Virus record (IMG/VR): IMGVR_UViG_2740892426_000005
Origin: a virus
Lineage: Duplodnaviria; Heunggongvirae; Uroviricota; Caudoviricetes
Length of the DNA stretch: 38,007 nucleotides
Reading direction: 5' to 3' (one strand)
Shown: piece after piece, positions 1 through 12,286 of the stretch
How positions within the stretch are numbered: position 1 is the stretch's first letter
Layout: every line of letters starts with the position of its first letter
Position numbers and translations under genes: made by a program
The notes under the pieces: generated by a model
Database searches by the model: none
Told to the model about the DNA's origin: nothing
The model's input: only the letters and a program-made list of their open reading frames with translations

Positions 1-1053
1 TTACGGGGTAATGCCAACCGCTGCCGCCACTTTGTCGCCACTTGGCAGCGTTGCCAGAGGATTGAAACGGAGCGCCGTTTCCAGATGATCCGGTGCCAGA
101 TGTGCGTAACGCATAGTCATTTTTATATCGTGGTGTCCGAGAATTTTTTGTAAGGCCAGAATGTTTCCACCCGACATCATGAAGTGCGCCGCAAACGTAT
201 GGCGCAGAACGTGTGTGAGTTGACCGCGAGGGAGCACGATAGACGTTTTTTCCATCACGGATAAAAATTGAAAATAGCAGTCTGTGAAGAAATTGAACCC
301 ATCAAGCGCCATGATCTCTTCGTAAAGCTCTTTACTGATAGGGATGCTTCTGTTTTTCTTCCCCTTCGTTCTGACAAAGGTAATTCGGTATTTGGTCACC
401 TGTGAGCGGGTAAGATTTACGGCTTCACGCCAGCGTGCGCCTGTGCTTAAGCATATCTTAACTACCAGTGCCAGAATTGGGTCCTGACGTTTGCAATCAG
501 CCAGCAATTCAACAATCTGCTCATGGGTAAGCCATGCCATCTCTTTTTCTGCGATGGTGAATTTTCGCATGTTCTCCAGTGGGTTCGGATACGACCATTC
601 GCCCAGACGGGATAGTTCGCTAAAAACACTACTTAGATAGCTTTGCTCCAGGTTAATGGTGACCGGGCTTGCTCCTTTCTTCCATTTCTCGCTGAAGTAG
701 ATCTCGCCTGTCAGGCGTTTATCTCGATAGTGGGCAAACATTTTAGAGGTGAGATCGGTTGCAAGAGGATTGCCCAGAGCGTCAACCATCAACAGCAATT
801 TGTCATAGACATGCTGCCCAGCTGTCAGAGATTTACCATGTAGTTTGAACCATAGCTCAACCACGTCTTTCAGTGTTCGACGATCCACTGATTCACCCAG
901 CCAGGGCTTTGCTTCGGTTTCTTCCATCGTGTGGCGCTCAAAAGCCAGTGCTTCGCCTTTGGTGGCGAATTGTTTACGCACACGACGCCCACTTCGTCCG
1001 GCGGGGTAACATTCGCAAAGCCATTTCCCAGTGGTGAGTTTTCGTACTGCCAT
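1..1053 (-). CDS. int: P2/186-type tyrosine integrase (350 aa)
   Basis: C-terminal catalytic region with HxxR and terminal Tyr context (LRHTFAAH...MTMRYAHL). Start placed at ATG 1053 (MAVRKLTTGKW) preceded by GGAGG about 9 nt upstream; the ORF-track extension to 1209 looks non-coding. Stop codon is at window nt 1-3. Confidence 0.85.
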   Translation of the reverse strand: MAVRKLTTGKWLCECYPAGRSGRRVRKQFATKGEALAFERHTMEETEAKPWLGESVDRRTLKDVVELWFKLHGKSLTAGQHVYDKLLLMVDALGNPLATDLTSKMFAHYRDKRLTGEIYFSEKWKKGASPVTINLEQSYLSSVFSELSRLGEWSYPNPLENMRKFTIAEKEMAWLTHEQIVELLADCKRQDPILALVVKICLSTGARWREAVNLTRSQVTKYRITFVRTKGKKNRSIPISKELYEEIMALDGFNFFTDCYFQFLSVMEKTSIVLPRGQLTHVLRHTFAAHFMMSGGNILALQKILGHHDIKMTMRYAHLAPDHLETALRFNPLATLPSGDKVAAAVGITP

Positions 1054-1241
1054 AAAAAATGCCCTCCAGTAGAGAGCATTTTTACTGTATGTATAACCAG
1101 TGTCAATGTATGAAATCCTACGACCATACATCTCACTGAAGCCATAATGAAGTTGGCTATTCTTTTTGCTATGTGAGCATGTAACTTTTGCGGTTAACCT
1201 GCGGCTCATTTTTATTTTAGACGCAGATATAAAAGCAAAAG

Positions 1242-1433
1242 TTATCGTGAGTTTTTAGTACAGATTTTTTTGGATTTACTAATAGTTCCATCATTGCAAA
1301 CAAATTTTCCATCGGAGGTACAGTGAGAGACACCTCCCTTTTTCCCAGAACAAGGATAATTTTTAGCATAGGTAGTTAGTGGGCTTAATAACAAAGAGCA
1401 TGATAAAACCACAAAAAATACTTTACCAAGCAT
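1242..1433 (-). CDS. small secreted cysteine-containing peptide (63-aa precursor, predicted signal peptide)
   Basis: Strong RBS GGGAGG 5 nt upstream of ATG; hydrophobic N-terminus [23 protein letters not shown] then a Lys/Ser-rich part with 4 Cys; AT-rich by eye; lies between cI and int on the same strand. Confidence 0.5.
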
Positions 1434-1448
1434 AGTTTCCTCCCGGTA

Positions 1449-2018
1449 TTATCTAACATATTTAACTGTTAAACTTATAATTTTACCAATTATTTCAATG
1501 TCTTCTATCTTACATTCGAAGGCTCTGTTTCCACCCTCGACGAAGATTCTTCCACCGGGTAAACGAGTAATGTCACGGATCGTTACTTCGCCATCAATAC
1601 TTATTACCCATTTACCATCACGTATGTCATCAAATTCTTTATCACAAATAAATTCAGAATTGTTATCTGTGATGACAAAAGGTTTTTTAAACGTAGAGGG
1701 TAGAAATCCCTTATCAAAAATATAAAAACCGTCTTCACGCAAGGCACCATCAGATAATACATATTTAGCAACTTCCATAGTATTTGTATTACCTGAAGTT
1801 TGCTTTGAACCATGTCCGGTTGTGAGCCAATTAAGCGAGGTGCCCGTTTCAAGGGCGCACTGGATTACCCATTCTGCTGGGAATGAGTCACGCATGTAGC
1901 GTGTGGCGAGTGTACTTTTAGAGATTCCTAAATGATCGCACAACGCCTGTCGAGTCTTGAATCCATAAGCTTCTACCATGCGCTCTATGGCGCCTCGTCC
2001 GCCTTTCTCCAAATTCAT
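1449..2018 (-). CDS. cI: CI-type immunity repressor (189 aa), phage 186 CI-like
   Basis: N-terminal HTH (RQALCDHLGISKSTLATRYMR), length close to 186 CI, position next to int and divergent from apl/cII. Start at ATG 2018 (RBS GGAG) rather than the GTG at 2024. Confidence 0.7.
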   Translation of the reverse strand: MNLEKGGRGAIERMVEAYGFKTRQALCDHLGISKSTLATRYMRDSFPAEWVIQCALETGTSLNWLTTGHGSKQTSGNTNTMEVAKYVLSDGALREDGFYIFDKGFLPSTFKKPFVITDNNSEFICDKEFDDIRDGKWVISIDGEVTIRDITRLPGGRIFVEGGNRAFECKIEDIEIIGKIISLTVKYVR

Positions 2019-2042
2019 GGTCACTCCGAGTGAACTTTTATC

Positions 2043-2071: not shown

Positions 2072-2143
2072 TATGGTGTTCACAAAATACAAACGATCCG
2101 TATTCGTCCTGATTAATCATCATTAAACGAGGAATGTTGCATC

Positions 2144-2365
2144 ATGAGACCTAACATTTCAATCACTCTTACCACGCCTCATGTGACTATTGAACGCTAT
2201 AGCGAGCTGACAGGGCTATCCATCGATACCATCAATGACATGTTGGCTGATGGACGCCTTATCCGTCACCGTCTGCGCAAAGATAAAAAACGCGAAAAAG
2301 TGATGATCAACATAGCAGCAATGACCGTTGATGCGCTTTCAGAATGCAATCTAAACCTTAATTAG
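2144..2365 (+). CDS. apl: Apl/Cox-like small DNA-binding excision and switch protein (73 aa)
   Basis: First gene of the rightward operon opposite cI, small basic protein with HTH-like segment; assignment by position and size. Confidence 0.5.
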
Positions 2366-8048: not shown

Positions 8049-8492
8049 GAAATGTTGCCCCCAGGAGGATTCATTCTAATGGGGGCTAGTTTGGGCAACG
8101 AGTGAAACGAGGCGTAAGGTGGGTAATCATTTTGATAAGTGATCGCCCACTTTGTGCCAAAAGCGGACATCGCAGATATGACAATATGTTAGTCAACCGC
8201 GATTAGATCAGTCAGTTGGAGATGGGGGGAAGTTACAAAAACTTGTCGTCCGCCATCTCCGACTACGGGTATTCTTAACTGTACATGCTCTTTCAATCGA
8301 TGATTTTTGAGTAAGTGACTAACCTATTGTTTTGATAGTAATTAAACGTATAAACGTGCGGAGTTAATTTGAAAGTTATGTGTCTATGTTTGACAAGCAA
8401 AATTTTAAAGATTGGTTTTATCCACAGGTAATTTATGCTATTAATAGCCTCAAGCCCTGTAATTATTTTTATTTAAATGGATAAATTTGAAA

Positions 8493-10613
8493 ATGAGTAC
8501 ATATCATAATGATCAGCCAATACTAGGTGGTCAAAATGACCCCGATTTATTAAACAGGCTCGATTTTGCAAATCACTTGGCAAATATTCTACTATTAAAT
8601 CACAATGATGATTGCCTTACTGTATCTATAGAGGCAGAGTGGGGATATGGTAAAACGTCAGTGATAAATCTTATAAAAGGTGCTTTGAATGAAAAGGAGT
8701 TCTTACCAATAATAATAGAATATAATCCATGGCTGGCCGGTCAACCTGAATCCTTGATTCAGGATTTTTTATTACAGTTCTCTTCACAACTAAATATTAA
8801 AGACAATTCAAAAGCTGCTTTGGAAGCTTCAAAAGAATTAATTGCATACTCCAATCTCTTCAGTGTAGCAAAACTTATTCCAGGGACAGAACCTTGGGCA
8901 TCTATCATAGAAAAAGTCCTCTCTAATTTTGGGAGTGCTACTAAAAAGATTGCTGAATTAAAAAAACTGGATCTTTTAGGTAGAAAAAAACAAGTAGAGA
9001 AGGCAATAAAAAAAATAAAAAATCCTATTGTGGTAATAATTGATGATATTGATCGATTGACTCCTACAGAAACTTTTCAAGTTTTACGATTGGTTAAAGC
9101 TGTTGCAGATTTCTCAGGAACTTCTTTTTTACTTGCATTTGATCCTAATTATTTGATTTCTGTGCTTGATAAAAATAATATCGTCAATTCTTCGGAGTAT
9201 CTTAATAAAATTGTTCAACTTCGAGTCCCACTTCCTGTAATCTCAGAAAGGGGTATGAATGAACTTGCAAATGCAGAACTGGAAAAGATAGCTAATAAAT
9301 CTTTAACTGACAGATTCGAAAGTGATCAAGAAAGACTAAGCTGGATTTATCATAATTATTTTAAAAAGCTAATTAAGAATCCGAGAGAGTTAAAAAGATT
9401 TTTTAACCATTTGAGATTCGTTTTAGAGCAAATTGAAGGGCAGGTATGTTTTTCTGATCTCTTTGCTTTATCTCTGGTCGCCACTAAATCGAGTTTGGTA
9501 TACGAGCATATTAAAAGCACACCAGAGGCATATATAGGGAAGAGATTCACTAATGATGGCCTTTTGATGGATAAACCTCAAGATATTGTGGATAGATTTA
9601 GTGATGAGCGAAATAAGAAACTGAGTAATTTTTCTGATCAAGAGCGTTCAGTGATGCAGGAACTCTTAGGAGATATTTTCCCACTTCTACAGTCAAGCGG
9701 GTATTCTCATTATGGGGTTTCTGATCCCGATACAGCAGGAAGGGTTTCTGCACCACAAAGGCTTCATATTGCGTTTCATTATAAAACTCCAGCAGGGTAT
9801 ATTTCTGATCATGATATTATCAGTTTCATTAATGGAGATGTTAAAAGAAACGAATTTCTAAGAGATGTGCTCTCGCAAAATGCAGAAGAAAGATTTTTTG
9901 AAATGATGAATAATTATTCGAGTTATTGTAAGGATAATAGTTTTGAAATATTAACGTGTATTTATGATACTTTTCTGTTTTCTCAAGAATTGAAATCCTC
10001 ATTGGAAAGAAACTATGGTTTTTTGACAAAAGATCTTTATAGAAGGATGAATTGGCTCACTAATAAGGTAATATCTGAAAGTGATGATAAATATGGGTTG
10101 ATAAAGGGGGTTGTAGGTAGGCATGAGAATGCGCCACTTGGTGCAGACGTATTATGCCAAGCTCGTAAACAGATTCAAAATGGATGGAATGACAAAATAT
10201 GGGTTAGTATTGAAGAATTGGCTGAACTTGAAGGTATCTTTCAACAGGTGGCTATTAAAGTTTTAAGTGATAAAATATATTTTGATTATCATCTTGAATC
10301 TCATATATTTTTCGAATTAAAGAGAGTTTCATCTCAATTTACATCAGAGTTTATTGCTTCTGTATTATCAAGTGATGGCCTGATTAGGATGTGTGAGATT
10401 ATTGGTGAAACAGGTAGTGATTCAACAAATGGCCCTTATTTTAAGTTTGATGAAATTTACTTCGGGGAAATACTTGATGTGAATGAACTTCGAAATAAAG
10501 CGAAAAATTTAGATTTTTCAATTTATCCCACACGCATTCAAGCTGTACTTAAGAGTATTCTGGATGGACAAAAATATTATTTGAGAGATGCAACTGTTGG
10601 TGAAGATTGGTAA
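8493..10613 (+). CDS. KAP-family P-loop NTPase (706 aa), candidate accessory/defence gene
   Basis: Walker A in KAP context (EAEWGYGKTS), Walker B (VVIIDDIDR), long helical C-terminal region; AT-rich by eye. Start at ATG 8493; the ORF-track start at 8487 is a TTG. Confidence 0.7.
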   Translation: MSTYHNDQPILGGQNDPDLLNRLDFANHLANILLLNHNDDCLTVSIEAEWGYGKTSVINLIKGALNEKEFLPIIIEYNPWLAGQPESLIQDFLLQFSSQLNIKDNSKAALEASKELIAYSNLFSVAKLIPGTEPWASIIEKVLSNFGSATKKIAELKKLDLLGRKKQVEKAIKKIKNPIVVIIDDIDRLTPTETFQVLRLVKAVADFSGTSFLLAFDPNYLISVLDKNNIVNSSEYLNKIVQLRVPLPVISERGMNELANAELEKIANKSLTDRFESDQERLSWIYHNYFKKLIKNPRELKRFFNHLRFVLEQIEGQVCFSDLFALSLVATKSSLVYEHIKSTPEAYIGKRFTNDGLLMDKPQDIVDRFSDERNKKLSNFSDQERSVMQELLGDIFPLLQSSGYSHYGVSDPDTAGRVSAPQRLHIAFHYKTPAGYISDHDIISFINGDVKRNEFLRDVLSQNAEERFFEMMNNYSSYCKDNSFEILTCIYDTFLFSQELKSSLERNYGFLTKDLYRRMNWLTNKVISESDDKYGLIKGVVGRHENAPLGADVLCQARKQIQNGWNDKIWVSIEELAELEGIFQQVAIKVLSDKIYFDYHLESHIFFELKRVSSQFTSEFIASVLSSDGLIRMCEIIGETGSDSTNGPYFKFDEIYFGEILDVNELRNKAKNLDFSIYPTRIQAVLKSILDGQKYYLRDATVGEDW

Positions 10614-11269: not shown

Positions 11270-12286
11270 TTGTTGAAAGCTATTCTGAGATATCATTATG
11301 ATGAAGTCGATTACAATACTCATTTTGGAGGGGAGTATTACCCGAGTTTTCTATTGGAAGATGATTTTATTTTCACCAAGGATATACAGGAGCATGATGA
11401 ATCTTTTGGGGAACTCGATAGCGAATTGTGGGATATGGCATTTGATAGTGAGGGAATAAATATTTATGCAGGCTATGGATCTGATGGTCTATATAATACG
11501 CCATATATGTCTATCAGAAATGCACATCAGCCATTTTTAGATTCTCTGTCAAAACAGCTTTCAGAAAAGAATTACCATGATTTTGAAGGTGAGCTAAGAA
11601 GTATTATAAAAGGTTATGGTGATATTTTTTCGAAGATAATAGAAGGAAGTTCTGTGGTATATAGAGCCAGAGTTGGGACTGCTGGCTATAAAACAGCACT
11701 TAGAGGATTTAGCCGTGAAGGAAAGAAAATATTTGTTCCATTTAAAGATAAGGAAATAGGAGCCGTGCCACCACTAAAGGCTACTGCTGGCAGGGCTAAT
11801 AGAGCAGGCGTTTCTTACCTTTATTGTGCTACAGATAGTTATACTGCAATTGCGGAAGTTCGACCTCATCCAACAGATGTGGTTTCAATTGGTAAATTTA
11901 GAGTTGCAAAAGCATTAAAGGTATTCGATTTTTCTTATCCTAATTTTTTAGAGTTTATTGAGAGTGATGAAAGTTTATTATCCATGATACCATATGCAAA
12001 GATGGCAGGTATTTTTAATACTGCAACTCCACCTTCCTTAGAAGGAAGATATAGTGTGTCCCAACTAATATCTGATTGTATAAGGAAAGAGGGGTATGAT
12101 GGTATACAATTTTCAAGTACAGTTGGTAAAGGTAAGAACTTGGTTGTTTTTAATCCTTCATGTATGGAATTTATAGATGGTTCATCAAAAGTAATAGAAA
12201 TTGACAAGGTTCAGTATATTTACGAGGAAAAGCAGGTTGTTGGTATGAATGATCAATGGGAGATTTATTACGATGAAGTTGAATAA
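11270..12286 (+). CDS. RES-domain protein with about 165-aa N-terminal extension (338 aa as called); candidate NAD-targeting toxin/abortive-infection effector
   Basis: RES signature residues in context: GRANRAGVSYLYCATDSYTAIAEV (Arg, Glu) and GYDGIQFSSTVGKGKNLVVF (Ser). The called start is TTG with a weak RBS; the frame is open from 11177; the first in-frame ATG is at 11435. AT-rich by eye. Confidence 0.6.
   Translation: MLKAILRYHYDEVDYNTHFGGEYYPSFLLEDDFIFTKDIQEHDESFGELDSELWDMAFDSEGINIYAGYGSDGLYNTPYMSIRNAHQPFLDSLSKQLSEKNYHDFEGELRSIIKGYGDIFSKIIEGSSVVYRARVGTAGYKTALRGFSREGKKIFVPFKDKEIGAVPPLKATAGRANRAGVSYLYCATDSYTAIAEVRPHPTDVVSIGKFRVAKALKVFDFSYPNFLEFIESDESLLSMIPYAKMAGIFNTATPPSLEGRYSVSQLISDCIRKEGYDGIQFSSTVGKGKNLVVFNPSCMEFIDGSSKVIEIDKVQYIYEEKQVVGMNDQWEIYYDEVE

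What the first reader, a model, noticed from the sequence alone, without database searches (positions are those of the whole stretch)
1242..1433. Small secreted cysteine peptide embedded in the cI-int lysogenic operon
A 63-codon ORF with a strong RBS (GGGAGG-N5-ATG) sits 15 nt downstream of cI and upstream of int on the same strand, so it should be co-transcribed from the lysogenic promoter in the prophage state. The product has a signal-peptide-like N-terminus and a Lys/Ser-rich mature part of about 40 aa with four Cys (two potential disulfides). Phage 186 has no gene here, and the segment is AT-rich. This looks like a lysogenic-conversion moron: a secreted peptide made constitutively by lysogens.
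Basis: partly seen in the sequence, partly recalled or inferred. Interest (0 to 1): 0.55.

Follow-up and report, generated by a model that had tools for sequence, protein, structure and literature searches.

The report
Prophage YdcA-like periplasmic mini-protein behind cI
The ORF is a real, strongly conserved gene for a tiny, positively charged, disulfide-bonded periplasmic protein of the already annotated YdcA family, which many P2/186-like prophages (including the one in E. coli BL21) carry directly behind their repressor gene; its function is untested but is most likely defence or exclusion at the cell envelope.

Summary
A 63-codon ORF (1242..1433, minus strand) lies 15 nt after the cI stop, behind GGGAGG-N5-ATG, in an AT-rich segment. 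Phage 186 has no gene at this position.

The ORF is not unknown. It passes the curated NCBIfam YdcA model, RefSeq calls it "YdcA family protein", and it is a paralogue of core E. coli ydcA. It occurs in 632 of 5426 complete E. coli genomes, including BL21(DE3).

It is under strong purifying selection: 80 prophage copies are all intact, with 14 synonymous and 0 non-synonymous changes in the four-cysteine core.

Homologues sit just downstream of unrelated repressor types in other P2-like phages. One is an unannotated gene in Haemophilus phage HP2 whose ATG overlaps the cI stop.

Sister prophages with the same integrase carry other cargo in this slot, including the defence gene PD-Lambda-1.

The domain is homologous to each lobe of Legionella Dis2, a disulfide-pinned subunit under the outer membrane in the Dot/Icm secretion machine. 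Elsewhere it is fused to secreted nucleases.

Best reading: a repressor-operon moron making a periplasmic mini-protein, probably for superinfection exclusion or defence, as with Glo in vibriophage K139. Function is inferred, not shown. Moderate interest.

The parts
1242..1433 (-). YdcA-family ORF: 63 codons plus stop. Precursor sequence: [63 protein letters not shown]
   Evidence: ORF. NCBIfam NF007463, 115.3 bits against cut-off 93; phrog_6000, 9e-34. RefSeq product name 'YdcA family protein'; purifying selection.
1365..1433 (-). Predicted Sec signal peptide, codons 1-23, with the cut after T-Y-A (Ala23).
   Evidence: hydropathy. Ala23 is invariant and the N-termini are otherwise variable; 69 of 72 homologue N-termini are signal-peptide-like. 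Inference only; no SignalP run and no experiment.
1245..1364 (-). Mature 40-aa peptide (K24-R63), net charge about +7. Core motif [12 protein letters not shown]-x7[13 protein letters not shown] with four invariant Cys, probably forming two disulfides.
   Evidence: invariant columns; 0 non-synonymous and 14 synonymous changes in codons 27-58 among 80 copies; homology to the disulfide-pinned lobes of Dis2.
1439..1444 (-). Shine-Dalgarno sequence GGGAGG, 5 nt upstream of the ATG, within the 15-nt cI-to-ORF spacer (1434..1448).
   Evidence: read directly; kept in 78 of 80 prophage copies.
1449..2024 (-). 186-type CI repressor gene (RefSeq start at 2018), the upstream gene of the same transcription unit.
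   Evidence: Phage_CI_repr and Phage_CI_C..
2134..2162 (-). pL-like lysogenic promoter: TTGAAA (2162..2157), 17-nt spacer, CAACAT (2139..2134). Positionally homologous to the mapped pL of 186 (TTGCGA-17-CATGAT), straddling the start of the apl/cox-like gene.
   Evidence: side-by-side sequences. (186 annotation). Promoter activity in this phage is inferred.
1182..1244 (-). Long imperfect hairpin that begins at the ORF stop codon. It has no U-tract. It may be a 3' stabiliser or processing element of the cassette.
   Evidence: -13 to -20.5 kcal/mol in both allele groups of 80 copies.
1055..1083 (-). 13-bp hairpin followed by U6 directly before the int AUG. The int Shine-Dalgarno sequence (GGAGGG) lies in the 3' arm. 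It looks like a terminator or a translation block between the cargo and int.
   Evidence: -14.5 kcal/mol, z = -5.4. Equivalent hairpins occur in a sister prophage with other cargo (L092) and in Yersinia prophages.
1078..1106 (-). Promoter-like site TTGACA-17-AAAAAT upstream of int. Its -10 element overlaps the 5' arm of the hairpin.
   Evidence: 10 of 12 consensus matches. The count of such sites in the region is not above shuffles, so this is weak evidence.
1..1053 (-). Tyrosine integrase of the prophage inserted next to rcdA. It forms the downstream border of the cargo slot.
   Evidence: this integrase type occurs in 1135 of 5426 E. coli genomes.

Best explanation
The ORF is a cargo gene (moron) of the immunity module of a 186-like prophage.

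Shown or strongly supported:
- It encodes a YdcA-family pre-protein.
- It lies 15 nt behind cI with its own strong Shine-Dalgarno sequence and no intervening signal.

Inferred:
- It is transcribed with cI from the pL-like promoter in lysogens, and from the CII-activated establishment promoter after infection.
- The Sec system exports it and the signal peptide is cut after Ala23.
- The four cysteines are oxidised to two disulfides, giving a 40-residue mini-domain with a net charge of about +7 that stays in the periplasm.
- By analogy with its solved homologue Dis2, the domain docks on lipoprotein-rich assemblies just under the outer membrane.

Most likely role, not tested: the lysogen uses it as an envelope-level exclusion or defence factor against incoming foreign DNA. 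The main target would be superinfecting phage, and possibly conjugative transfer. This is the role that periplasmic Glo has in the cI-int interval of vibriophage K139.

Transcription probably stops or is damped at the hairpin in front of int. The working unit would then be cI plus this gene rather than cI-peptide-int.
For: Real gene and family:
- NCBIfam 115 bits against cut-off 93, phrog_6000, and the RefSeq product name.
- All 80 IMG/VR copies are intact, with 19 synonymous and 4 non-synonymous changes and none of the latter in the core.
- Against Yersinia alleles, synonymous sites are saturated with only 2 non-synonymous differences over 66.5 sites.

Export:
-.
- Dis2 residues 40-115 are resolved in the periplasmic outer-membrane cap with five disulfides.

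Operon:
- The 15-nt spacer and the pL homologue.
- In HP2 the homologue's ATG overlaps the cI stop (TAATG).

Repeated placement behind repressors of different types:
- 186-type CI in Escherichia, Yersinia and Buttiauxella. Here cI is only 32-37% identical and int 48% identical, while the core of this protein stays about 90% identical.
- HP2 and S2.
- An XRE-type HTH repressor in Iodobacter and an S24-type repressor in Oceanisphaera.
- At least 16 of 79 species-level loci lie in P2-like prophages.

Cargo or defence slot:
- The same integrase and attachment site occur with PD-Lambda-1 (PADLOC 3e-120) or other unknown genes in place of this ORF.
- A published survey lists a minor P2 defence hotspot between integrase and primase (PMC13586616).

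Association with mobile elements:
- Moraxella and Acinetobacter phages, and plasmids of 3.9-5.4 kb.

Docking under the outer membrane:
- Dis2 homology: hmmsearch 8.6e-5, Foldseek top hits at probability 0.96 and 0.75, hhalign 91%.
- Dis2 contacts DotK, DotC and DotD near the outer membrane.

Precedent:
- K139 has cI-orf2-glo-int, and Glo is annotated as periplasmic and involved in phage exclusion.
Against: - There is no expression, localisation or phenotype data for this gene.
- There is no match to any PADLOC defence model.
- There is no homology to Glo (hhalign probability 0.1).
- A chromosomal paralogue (ydcA) is core in E. coli and is linked in the literature to acid and 3-hydroxypropionate tolerance, not to phage. 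That fits a host-fitness role at least as well.
- Many family members are chromosomal: in T6SS clusters, in the rplS neighbourhood, and at cybB-ydcA-hokB.
- Dis2 is dispensable for its machine and its own role is unknown.
- The promoter and terminator calls are consensus or energy based only.
Confidence: 0.4

Rival explanations
1. Host-fitness moron. The prophage supplies an extra, repressor-linked copy of the host envelope protein YdcA. This copy improves tolerance of the lysogen to acid, organic acid or other envelope stress, and has no direct effect on other phages.
For: - The core is 73% identical to core E. coli YdcA.
- Deleting ydcA makes E. coli W sensitive to 3-hydroxypropionate, and that paper reports ydcA as acid-induced under YdcI (PMC7642389).
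- The gene is retained intact in decayed prophages: BL21(DE3) with the cII-to-gpA deletion, and K_EC180 with a frameshifted cI. This suits a benefit to the host.
- Many homologues are chromosomal.
Against: - The host already has ydcA.
- The slot alternates with a known defence gene.
- The family recurs on very small plasmids and several phage types, where stress genes are unusual.
- The published ydcA phenotype is a single growth test with no mechanism.
Confidence: 0.3
2. Protection against, or modulation of, contact-dependent machines. The mini-domain would bind parts of type IV or type VI secretion systems. It would serve as an orphan immunity or adaptor protein in the periplasm rather than as an anti-phage factor.
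For: - Dis2 is a stoichiometric subunit of the Dot/Icm outer-membrane cap (13 copies).
- A 134-aa form of the family sits at a fixed place inside T6SS clusters of 16 enterobacterial species, after TssF, TssG, TssE and a 156-aa gene.
- UniRef labels the exact protein 'Conjugal transfer protein'.
- On a 3.9-kb plasmid a homologue is next to a TraD-like gene.
Against: - The E. coli hosts have no Dot/Icm system.
- The T6SS-cluster form has an extra C-terminal part that is lacking here.
- No effector gene is adjacent in the prophage.
- The UniRef name is automatic and unsupported.
Confidence: 0.1
3. The gene serves the phage's own cycle, for example lysogeny control, int expression, lysis or virion assembly, rather than lysogenic conversion.
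For: It is tightly linked to cI in several phage lineages. In HP2 it is translationally coupled to cI.
Against: - It is absent from 186 and from about 45% of prophages with the same integrase, which carry unrelated genes in the slot.
- An exported 4-kDa peptide is an unlikely regulator of cytoplasmic steps.
- Homologues occur outside phages.
Confidence: 0.07
4. It is an exported cationic, disulfide-stabilised antimicrobial peptide (bacteriocin- or defensin-like) used against competitors.
For: The peptide is 40 aa, carries about +7 net charge and probably has two disulfides.
Against: - There is only a Sec signal peptide and no dedicated exporter, so the peptide has no route across the outer membrane.
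- No immunity gene is adjacent.
- The same domain is a structural subunit in Legionella and a core chromosomal gene in E. coli.
Confidence: 0.04
5. It is a chance ORF or an annotation artefact in AT-rich DNA.
For: It is short and AT-rich. Older records annotate it only as 'hypothetical protein'.
Against: - It scores above the curated family cut-off.
- There are 442 family clusters at E<=1e-3 among 1.84 billion representatives.
- There are 0 non-synonymous and 14 synonymous changes in the core, with no disrupted copy among 80.
Confidence: 0.01

Closest known systems
E. coli YdcA (b1419) and the YdcA family (NCBIfam NF007462-NF007464 / PRK10040, Pfam PF27300, phrog_6000)
   Same: - Same architecture: a signal peptide plus a core of about 35 aa, PCSG-KGG-x-x-x-C...F-x-C-x-DG-x-x-S-x-SK-x-x-C, with four Cys.
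- It scores above the curated cut-off.
- The mature parts are 73% identical.
   Different: - It is encoded in a prophage immunity module behind cI, not between cybB and hokB on the chromosome.
- The signal peptide is different.
- The mature part is more basic.
- The family itself has no established function.
Glo (and orf2) of Vibrio cholerae phage K139, a P2/HP1-like phage
   Same: - Same position and strand, between cI and int in the pL lysogenic operon.
- It carries a signal peptide.
- Glo is annotated as periplasmic and involved in phage exclusion. The primary paper is Nesper et al. 1999, J Bacteriol 181:2902. It is cited and was not readable here, so details come from my own knowledge.
   Different: - No sequence relationship (hhalign probability 0.1).
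- Glo is 137 aa, against 63 aa here.
- An exclusion phenotype has been shown for Glo but not for this gene.
[quoted passage not shown]
   Same: - Homologous domain: hmmsearch 8.6e-5, hhalign 91%, and Foldseek top hits.
- A Dis2 homologue carries the same precomputed Pfam PF27300.
- It is exported and disulfide-pinned, and sits beneath the outer membrane.
   Different: - Dis2 has two tandem lobes with five disulfides and is built into a 13-fold machine.
- This protein is a single free lobe in a host without Dot/Icm.
- The role of Dis2 is itself unknown, and Dis2 is dispensable.
Cargo hotspots of P2-like prophages (old, tin and fun in P2; hotspots described by Rousset et al. 2022 and in PMC13586616)
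   Same: - It is a variable slot bounded by conserved phage genes.
- Sister prophages carry a validated defence gene (PD-Lambda-1) at the same place.
- The 2026 survey lists a minor hotspot between integrase and primase.
   Different: - This gene matches no known defence model.
- The cargo changes together with the cI allele, so the swapped unit appears to be the whole immunity module.
Small envelope exclusion proteins of mobile elements (Cor and Llp lipoproteins, RP4 TrbK, T4 Sp)
   Same: It is a small exported protein made by a resident element. It could act on incoming DNA at the envelope.
   Different: - It is not a lipoprotein. Cys12 is not in a lipobox and is not conserved.
- No sequence relationship was tested or seen.
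- The comparison is by analogy only, from my own knowledge.

Membership tests
YdcA family (NCBIfam NF007463 / Pfam PF27300) | Score above the curated family cut-off | tested here: met
   115.3 bits against cut-off 93, covering residues 5-63; all close relatives carry precomputed PF27300. The local Pfam copy lacks this model.
YdcA family (NCBIfam NF007463 / Pfam PF27300) | N-terminal signal peptide followed by a conserved four-Cys core of about 35 aa | tested here: met
   P27, C28, S29, K32, G33, G34, C38, F44, C46, D48, G49, S52, S54, K55 and C58 are invariant; signal-peptide-like N-termini in 69 of 72.
Lysogenic-operon exclusion genes of P2-like phages (K139 Glo type) | Encoded between cI and int on the lysogenic strand, downstream of pL | tested here: met
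Lysogenic-operon exclusion genes of P2-like phages (K139 Glo type) | Periplasmic product | tested here: inconclusive
   The signal peptide is predicted from sequence and family behaviour, and the homologue Dis2 is periplasmic. There is no localisation experiment.
Lysogenic-operon exclusion genes of P2-like phages (K139 Glo type) | Sequence homology to Glo | tested here: not met
   hhalign probability 0.1.
Lysogenic-operon exclusion genes of P2-like phages (K139 Glo type) | Blocks superinfection at an early step | not testable with these tools
   Needs plating, adsorption and injection assays.
Dis2-type subunit of the Dot/Icm T4SS | Homologous disulfide-pinned domain | tested here: met
   (E 8.6e-5). 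(mature-only profile, E 0.0079, still the best PDB hit). (Foldseek ranks 1-2, probability 0.96 and 0.75). (hhalign 90.9%).
Dis2-type subunit of the Dot/Icm T4SS | Two tandem lobes, and a host that encodes a Dot/Icm machine | tested here: not met
   There is a single lobe of 40 aa. The host is E. coli and the context is a prophage.
Known anti-phage defence systems (PADLOC-DB v2) | Match to a defence protein model | tested here: not met
   0 families. The alternative cargo in vB_EcoM-813R9 matches PD-Lambda-1 at 3e-120.
Outer-membrane lipoprotein exclusion factors (Cor/Llp type) | Lipobox with the lipidated Cys at the cleavage site | tested here: not met
   The only N-terminal Cys (C12, in the context V-L-S-C) lies inside the hydrophobic core at position 12 and is absent from most homologues. 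The conserved cut site is A-x-A type.
Exported bacteriocin or antimicrobial peptide | Dedicated exporter and immunity gene nearby | tested here: not met
   The neighbours are only cI and int.

The most novel reading that the evidence does not exclude
YdcA-type mini-domains could be a widespread, so far unrecognised class of periplasmic entry-exclusion factors carried by mobile elements. In this reading a 4-kDa, disulfide-stapled, cationic module docks under the outer membrane and interferes with DNA-injecting machines or with the incoming DNA itself. That would explain four observations together:
- its repeated placement behind prophage repressors;
- its presence on plasmids of about 4 kb;
- its fusion to three unrelated families of secreted nucleases;
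- its incorporation into the Dot/Icm cap as Dis2.

The core E. coli ydcA would then be a domesticated copy.
Probability: 0.2. Interest if true: 0.7.

Novelty: new member of a known kind. Interest (0 to 1): 0.4.

Why it matters
The gene is common. It is in about 12% of complete E. coli genomes, including BL21(DE3), E. coli B and ATCC 8739, and in at least 532 IMG/VR viral contigs. Its protein core is kept unchanged while the flanking repressor and integrase genes diverge to 32-48% identity. Nobody has assigned it a function.

If it is an exclusion or defence factor, it would be among the smallest known, and it would act in the periplasm rather than the cytoplasm. It would also give a first functional handle on three other unknowns: core E. 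coli YdcA, the 134-aa form in T6SS clusters, and Legionella Dis2.

Dis2 is described in the literature as specific to Legionellales with no obvious homologues. Here it turns out to be a tandem pair of YdcA domains.

If the gene instead only adds envelope stress tolerance, it is an ordinary lysogenic-conversion gene. Either way, it can be tested directly in a standard laboratory strain.

Tried and rejected
Searches that found nothing useful:
- The local Pfam copy gives no real hit for the ORF or for the HP2 homologue. Only a sub-threshold GULLO2 match appears. The family model PF27300 is newer than that copy.
- PADLOC has no model for the ORF.
- Foldseek against viral structures (BFVD) found nothing significant.
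- The afdb50 library was unavailable.
- Rfam found nothing significant across 800-2400.
- Paper searches by protein accession found nothing.
- The primary K139 paper is not held in the library.

Leads that turned out empty:
- The 'plasmid' hits in E. coli are chromosome pieces or mislabelled chromosomes carrying the same prophage or the core ydcA. They are not true plasmid copies.
- The pS88 gene named 'ydcA' is an unrelated methylase.
- The IMG/VR scan returned only near-identical E. coli copies. It was useful for polymorphism counts but not for diversity.

Weak or rejected structural readings:
- RNAalifold on six int leaders did not recover the hairpin, because the alignment was poor. Single-sequence folds do show it.
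- The plus-strand terminator-like site at 1188-1204 relies on G-T pairs and has no gene to terminate. I treat it as chance.
- A lipoprotein reading of Cys12 is rejected, because it has no lipobox and is not conserved.
- The weak NCBIfam hit to the lpg1681 family (E 0.09) is ignored as sub-threshold.

Full report
1. WHAT IS IN THE SEQUENCE

On the minus strand the window carries int (1..1053), a 188-nt gap, a 63-codon ORF (1242..1433), a 15-nt spacer and cI (1449..2024).
- cI matches Pfam Phage_CI_repr and Phage_CI_C. int matches Int_N and Phage_integrase.
- The spacer reads TACCGGGAGGAAACT-ATG, so GGGAGG lies 5 nt before the start codon.
- The ORF has 33.9% GC against 50.2% for the window. The low-GC stretch (about 1100-1800) also covers the 3' half of cI.
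- In phage 186, cI and int overlap by one base and nothing lies between them.

2. THE PRODUCT

The precursor is [23 protein letters not shown]|[40 protein letters not shown].
- The N-terminus has a basic residue, a 12-residue hydrophobic core and a T-Y-A cut site.
- In an alignment of 26-28 homologues the N-termini vary freely, but the Ala at -1 is invariant or nearly so. Fifteen core positions are invariant, including four Cys.
- A simple n/h/c-region test is passed by 69 of 72 distinct homologue N-termini.
- The mature peptide has 40 residues and a net charge of about +7.
- No SignalP run was available, so export is an inference, though a strong one.

3. IT IS A KNOWN FAMILY OF UNKNOWN FUNCTION

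- The ORF scores 115.3 bits against NCBIfam NF007463 (curated cut-off 93) and 9e-34 against phrog_6000, whose function is listed as unknown.
- Newer RefSeq records call it 'YdcA family protein'.
- Relatives carry the precomputed Pfam PF27300.
- The chromosomal E. coli ydcA lies between cybB and hokB and encodes a mature part that is 73% identical.
- The literature on ydcA is thin. It lists unknown function, sensitivity of a deletion mutant to 3-hydroxypropionate, and reported acid induction under YdcI.

4. ABUNDANCE AND SELECTION

- The ORF DNA is present in 632 of 5426 complete E. coli genomes, and 628 of these cover at least 80% of it.
- The integrase type is present in 1135 genomes. Roughly 55% of prophages with this integrase therefore carry the gene.
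- E. coli B/BL21(DE3) and ATCC 8739 have it. In BL21 the prophage is defective (a deletion from cII to gpA), yet cI, the ORF and int are intact.
- At least 532 IMG/VR contigs encode a relative.
- Among the 80 best of those, all copies are intact. There are 19 synonymous and 4 non-synonymous changes. None of the non-synonymous changes, and 14 of the synonymous ones, fall in codons 27-58.
- Against the Yersinia prophage alleles, synonymous sites are saturated (about 15 of 17.5) with only 2 non-synonymous differences over 66.5 sites.

This is a functional gene under strong constraint.

5. POSITION IS CONSERVED ACROSS DISTANT PHAGES

- In prophages of three Yersinia species and an Escherichia species, the order is cI, homologue, int. 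In Buttiauxella it is cI, a 133-aa exported protein, then the homologue.
- Between these phages and the window, cI is 32-37% identical and int 48% identical, while the core of the small protein stays near 90%.
- Haemophilus phages HP2 and S2 carry an unannotated 60-codon homologue whose ATG overlaps the cI stop (TAATG). It is followed by orf1(S) and int.
- In P2-like prophages of Iodobacter and Oceanisphaera, the homologue follows an XRE-type or an S24-type repressor on the same strand.
- At least 16 of 79 species-level loci lie in P2-like prophages.
- Other homologues sit among the structural genes of Moraxella and Acinetobacter phages, and on plasmids as small as 3.9 and 5.4 kb.

6. THE SLOT IS A CARGO SLOT

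Prophages with the same integrase at the same rcdA site carry other cargo between cI and int:
- PD-Lambda-1 in vB_EcoM-813R9 (PADLOC 3e-120);
- a 349-aa gene, with or without a 201-aa gene;
- a 314-aa gene.

In each case the cI allele is also different. A recent survey of P2-like prophages lists a minor defence hotspot between integrase and primase. The ORF itself matches no PADLOC model.

7. TRANSCRIPTION

- A sequence positionally homologous to the mapped pL of 186 is present: TTGAAA-17-CAACAT, against TTGCGA-17-CATGAT in 186. It straddles the start of the apl-like gene.
- No promoter-like or terminator-like site lies between cI and the ORF. Co-transcription with cI is the simplest reading.
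- Downstream, a long hairpin starts at the ORF stop codon.
- A 13-bp hairpin followed by U6 directly abuts the int AUG, with the int Shine-Dalgarno sequence in its 3' arm (-14.5 kcal/mol, z = -5.4).
- A TTGACA-17-AAAAAT site lies just upstream of that hairpin.
- Equivalent hairpins precede int in a sister prophage with other cargo and in the Yersinia prophages.

int may therefore be largely uncoupled from the cI transcript.

8. WHAT THE DOMAIN DOES ELSEWHERE

Homology to Dis2:
- A profile of the family finds Legionella Dis2 (Lpg0823, PDB 7MUC chain AN) as the best PDB hit, at E 8.6e-5. With a mature-only profile the value is E 0.0079, and Dis2 is still first.
- The AF2 model (pLDDT 77) has the Dis2 chains as its top two Foldseek hits, at probability 0.96 and 0.75.
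- A Dis2 homologue carries PF27300 and aligns to the YdcA core at hhalign probability 90.9%.
- Dis2 consists of two similar lobes pinned by five disulfides. It sits next to the outer membrane in the Dot/Icm cap, contacts DotK, DotC and DotD, and is dispensable for the machine.
- The published papers describe Dis2 as without structural relatives or obvious homologues outside Legionellales. The link to the YdcA family seems not to have been drawn there.

Wider family:
- In the 1.84-billion-representative library the family has 442 clusters at E<=1e-3.
- Among 62 longer members, the domain is fused N-terminally to Endonuclease_NS (3 members), SNase (1) and a PLD-type nuclease (1).
- A 134-aa form occupies a fixed place in the T6SS clusters of 16 enterobacterial species.
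- In 10 of those 16 it is followed by inserted PD-Lambda-1-like and NERD/UvrD genes.

9. MECHANISM

Shown: the gene, the family, the constraint, the position and the homology to a periplasmic disulfide-pinned domain.

Inferred: transcription with cI, Sec export, two disulfides, and docking under the outer membrane.

Hypothesised: the phenotype. I favour exclusion or defence against incoming DNA (confidence about 0.4 for the full statement). The reasons are:
- the repressor-linked placement in many phages;
- the cargo or defence nature of the slot;
- the association with mobile elements;
- the precedent of K139. There, cI-orf2-glo-int is the lysogenic operon, and Glo is a periplasmic exclusion protein that is not homologous to this one.

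The main rival (0.3) is a host-fitness role that copies the chromosomal ydcA. It is supported by the only published phenotype and by retention of the gene in decayed prophages.

10. VERDICT

The gene is an already annotated member of a known family, placed in a known kind of phage locus, so it is not categorically new. It is still an abundant, strongly constrained and experimentally accessible unknown, with a new structural link to Dis2. Interest is moderate.

Noticed in passing
window 1055-1106 (minus strand): The int leader has a 13-bp hairpin plus U6 ending at the int AUG, with the int Shine-Dalgarno sequence buried in the 3' arm. A TTGACA-17-AAAAAT promoter-like site overlaps its 5' arm. 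The same design, with different arm sequences, occurs in a sister prophage with other cargo (L092) and in Yersinia prophages (L014, L026). This suggests int is uncoupled from the cI transcript, unlike in 186, where int overlaps cI.
   Followed up: partly
window 1182-1244 (minus strand): A long imperfect hairpin starts exactly at the stop codon of the small ORF. It has no U-tract. It is kept (-13 to -20.5 kcal/mol) in both allele groups among 80 prophage copies. Its role is unknown.
   Followed up: partly
   Followed up: yes
window 8487-10613 (plus strand): A 708-aa PifA-like protein (PADLOC PifA, 1.3e-64) lies in the classical P2 hotspot between the replication gene and the portal gene. A 338-aa ORF beside it (11270-12286) has no defence match.
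   Followed up: partly
L099 (E. coli BL21(DE3), NZ_CP081489.1 875294-883173): BL21(DE3)/E. coli B carries the same cI, YdcA-like gene and int module in a defective prophage (deleted from cII into the replication gene). The same prophage also holds the retron (St85-family effector and reverse transcriptase). A standard laboratory strain therefore has the gene.
   Followed up: partly
L024 1623-9121, L035 and 14 other loci (enterobacterial T6SS clusters): A 134-aa protein with an N-terminal YdcA domain sits at a fixed place after TssF, TssG, TssE and a 156-aa gene. In 10 of 16 species, a PD-Lambda-1-like gene (414 aa) and often a NERD/UvrD gene (608 aa) are inserted between it and the TssA/VasL gene. 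Defence genes thus appear inside a T6SS cluster.
   Followed up: partly
P0212, P0161, P0119, P0209 (proteins); L045, L063: A signal peptide plus YdcA domain is fused to three unrelated secreted nuclease families: Endonuclease_NS, SNase and a PLD-type nuclease. This hints that the domain targets, or binds near, DNA or a DNA entry site.
   Followed up: partly
PDB 7MUC chain AN; P0229, P0230: Legionella Dis2 is described in the literature as species-specific, with no structural or sequence relatives. It is in fact two tandem YdcA-type domains. The second lobe even keeps the motif CNDGSIS.
   Followed up: yes
L093 (E. coli K_EC180, NZ_CP062203.1 3268459-3276511): This prophage is decayed, with a frameshifted cI, a truncated cII and a large internal deletion. 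It still has an intact copy of the small ORF.
   Followed up: no
L095 (pApiMCR53a, 3916 bp) and L096 (Psychrobacter pA40P1, 5371 bp): YdcA homologues are one of only five genes on very small mobilizable plasmids. In one plasmid the gene follows a TraD-like gene. In the other it lies in an operon of lipoprotein, homologue and a 319-aa gene.
   Followed up: no
L010 (JAEWTL010000113.1): A 3-kb contig labelled 'Bacillota bacterium' MAG carries the E. coli-type cI, YdcA-like gene and int module at 97% protein identity. It is probably a binning contaminant.
   Followed up: no
L012 5588-6180 (Buttiauxella brennerae): Here the repressor is followed by a 133-aa exported protein of unknown family. Its stop codon overlaps the start of the YdcA homologue, making a two-gene exported cargo. 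No integrase follows.
   Followed up: no
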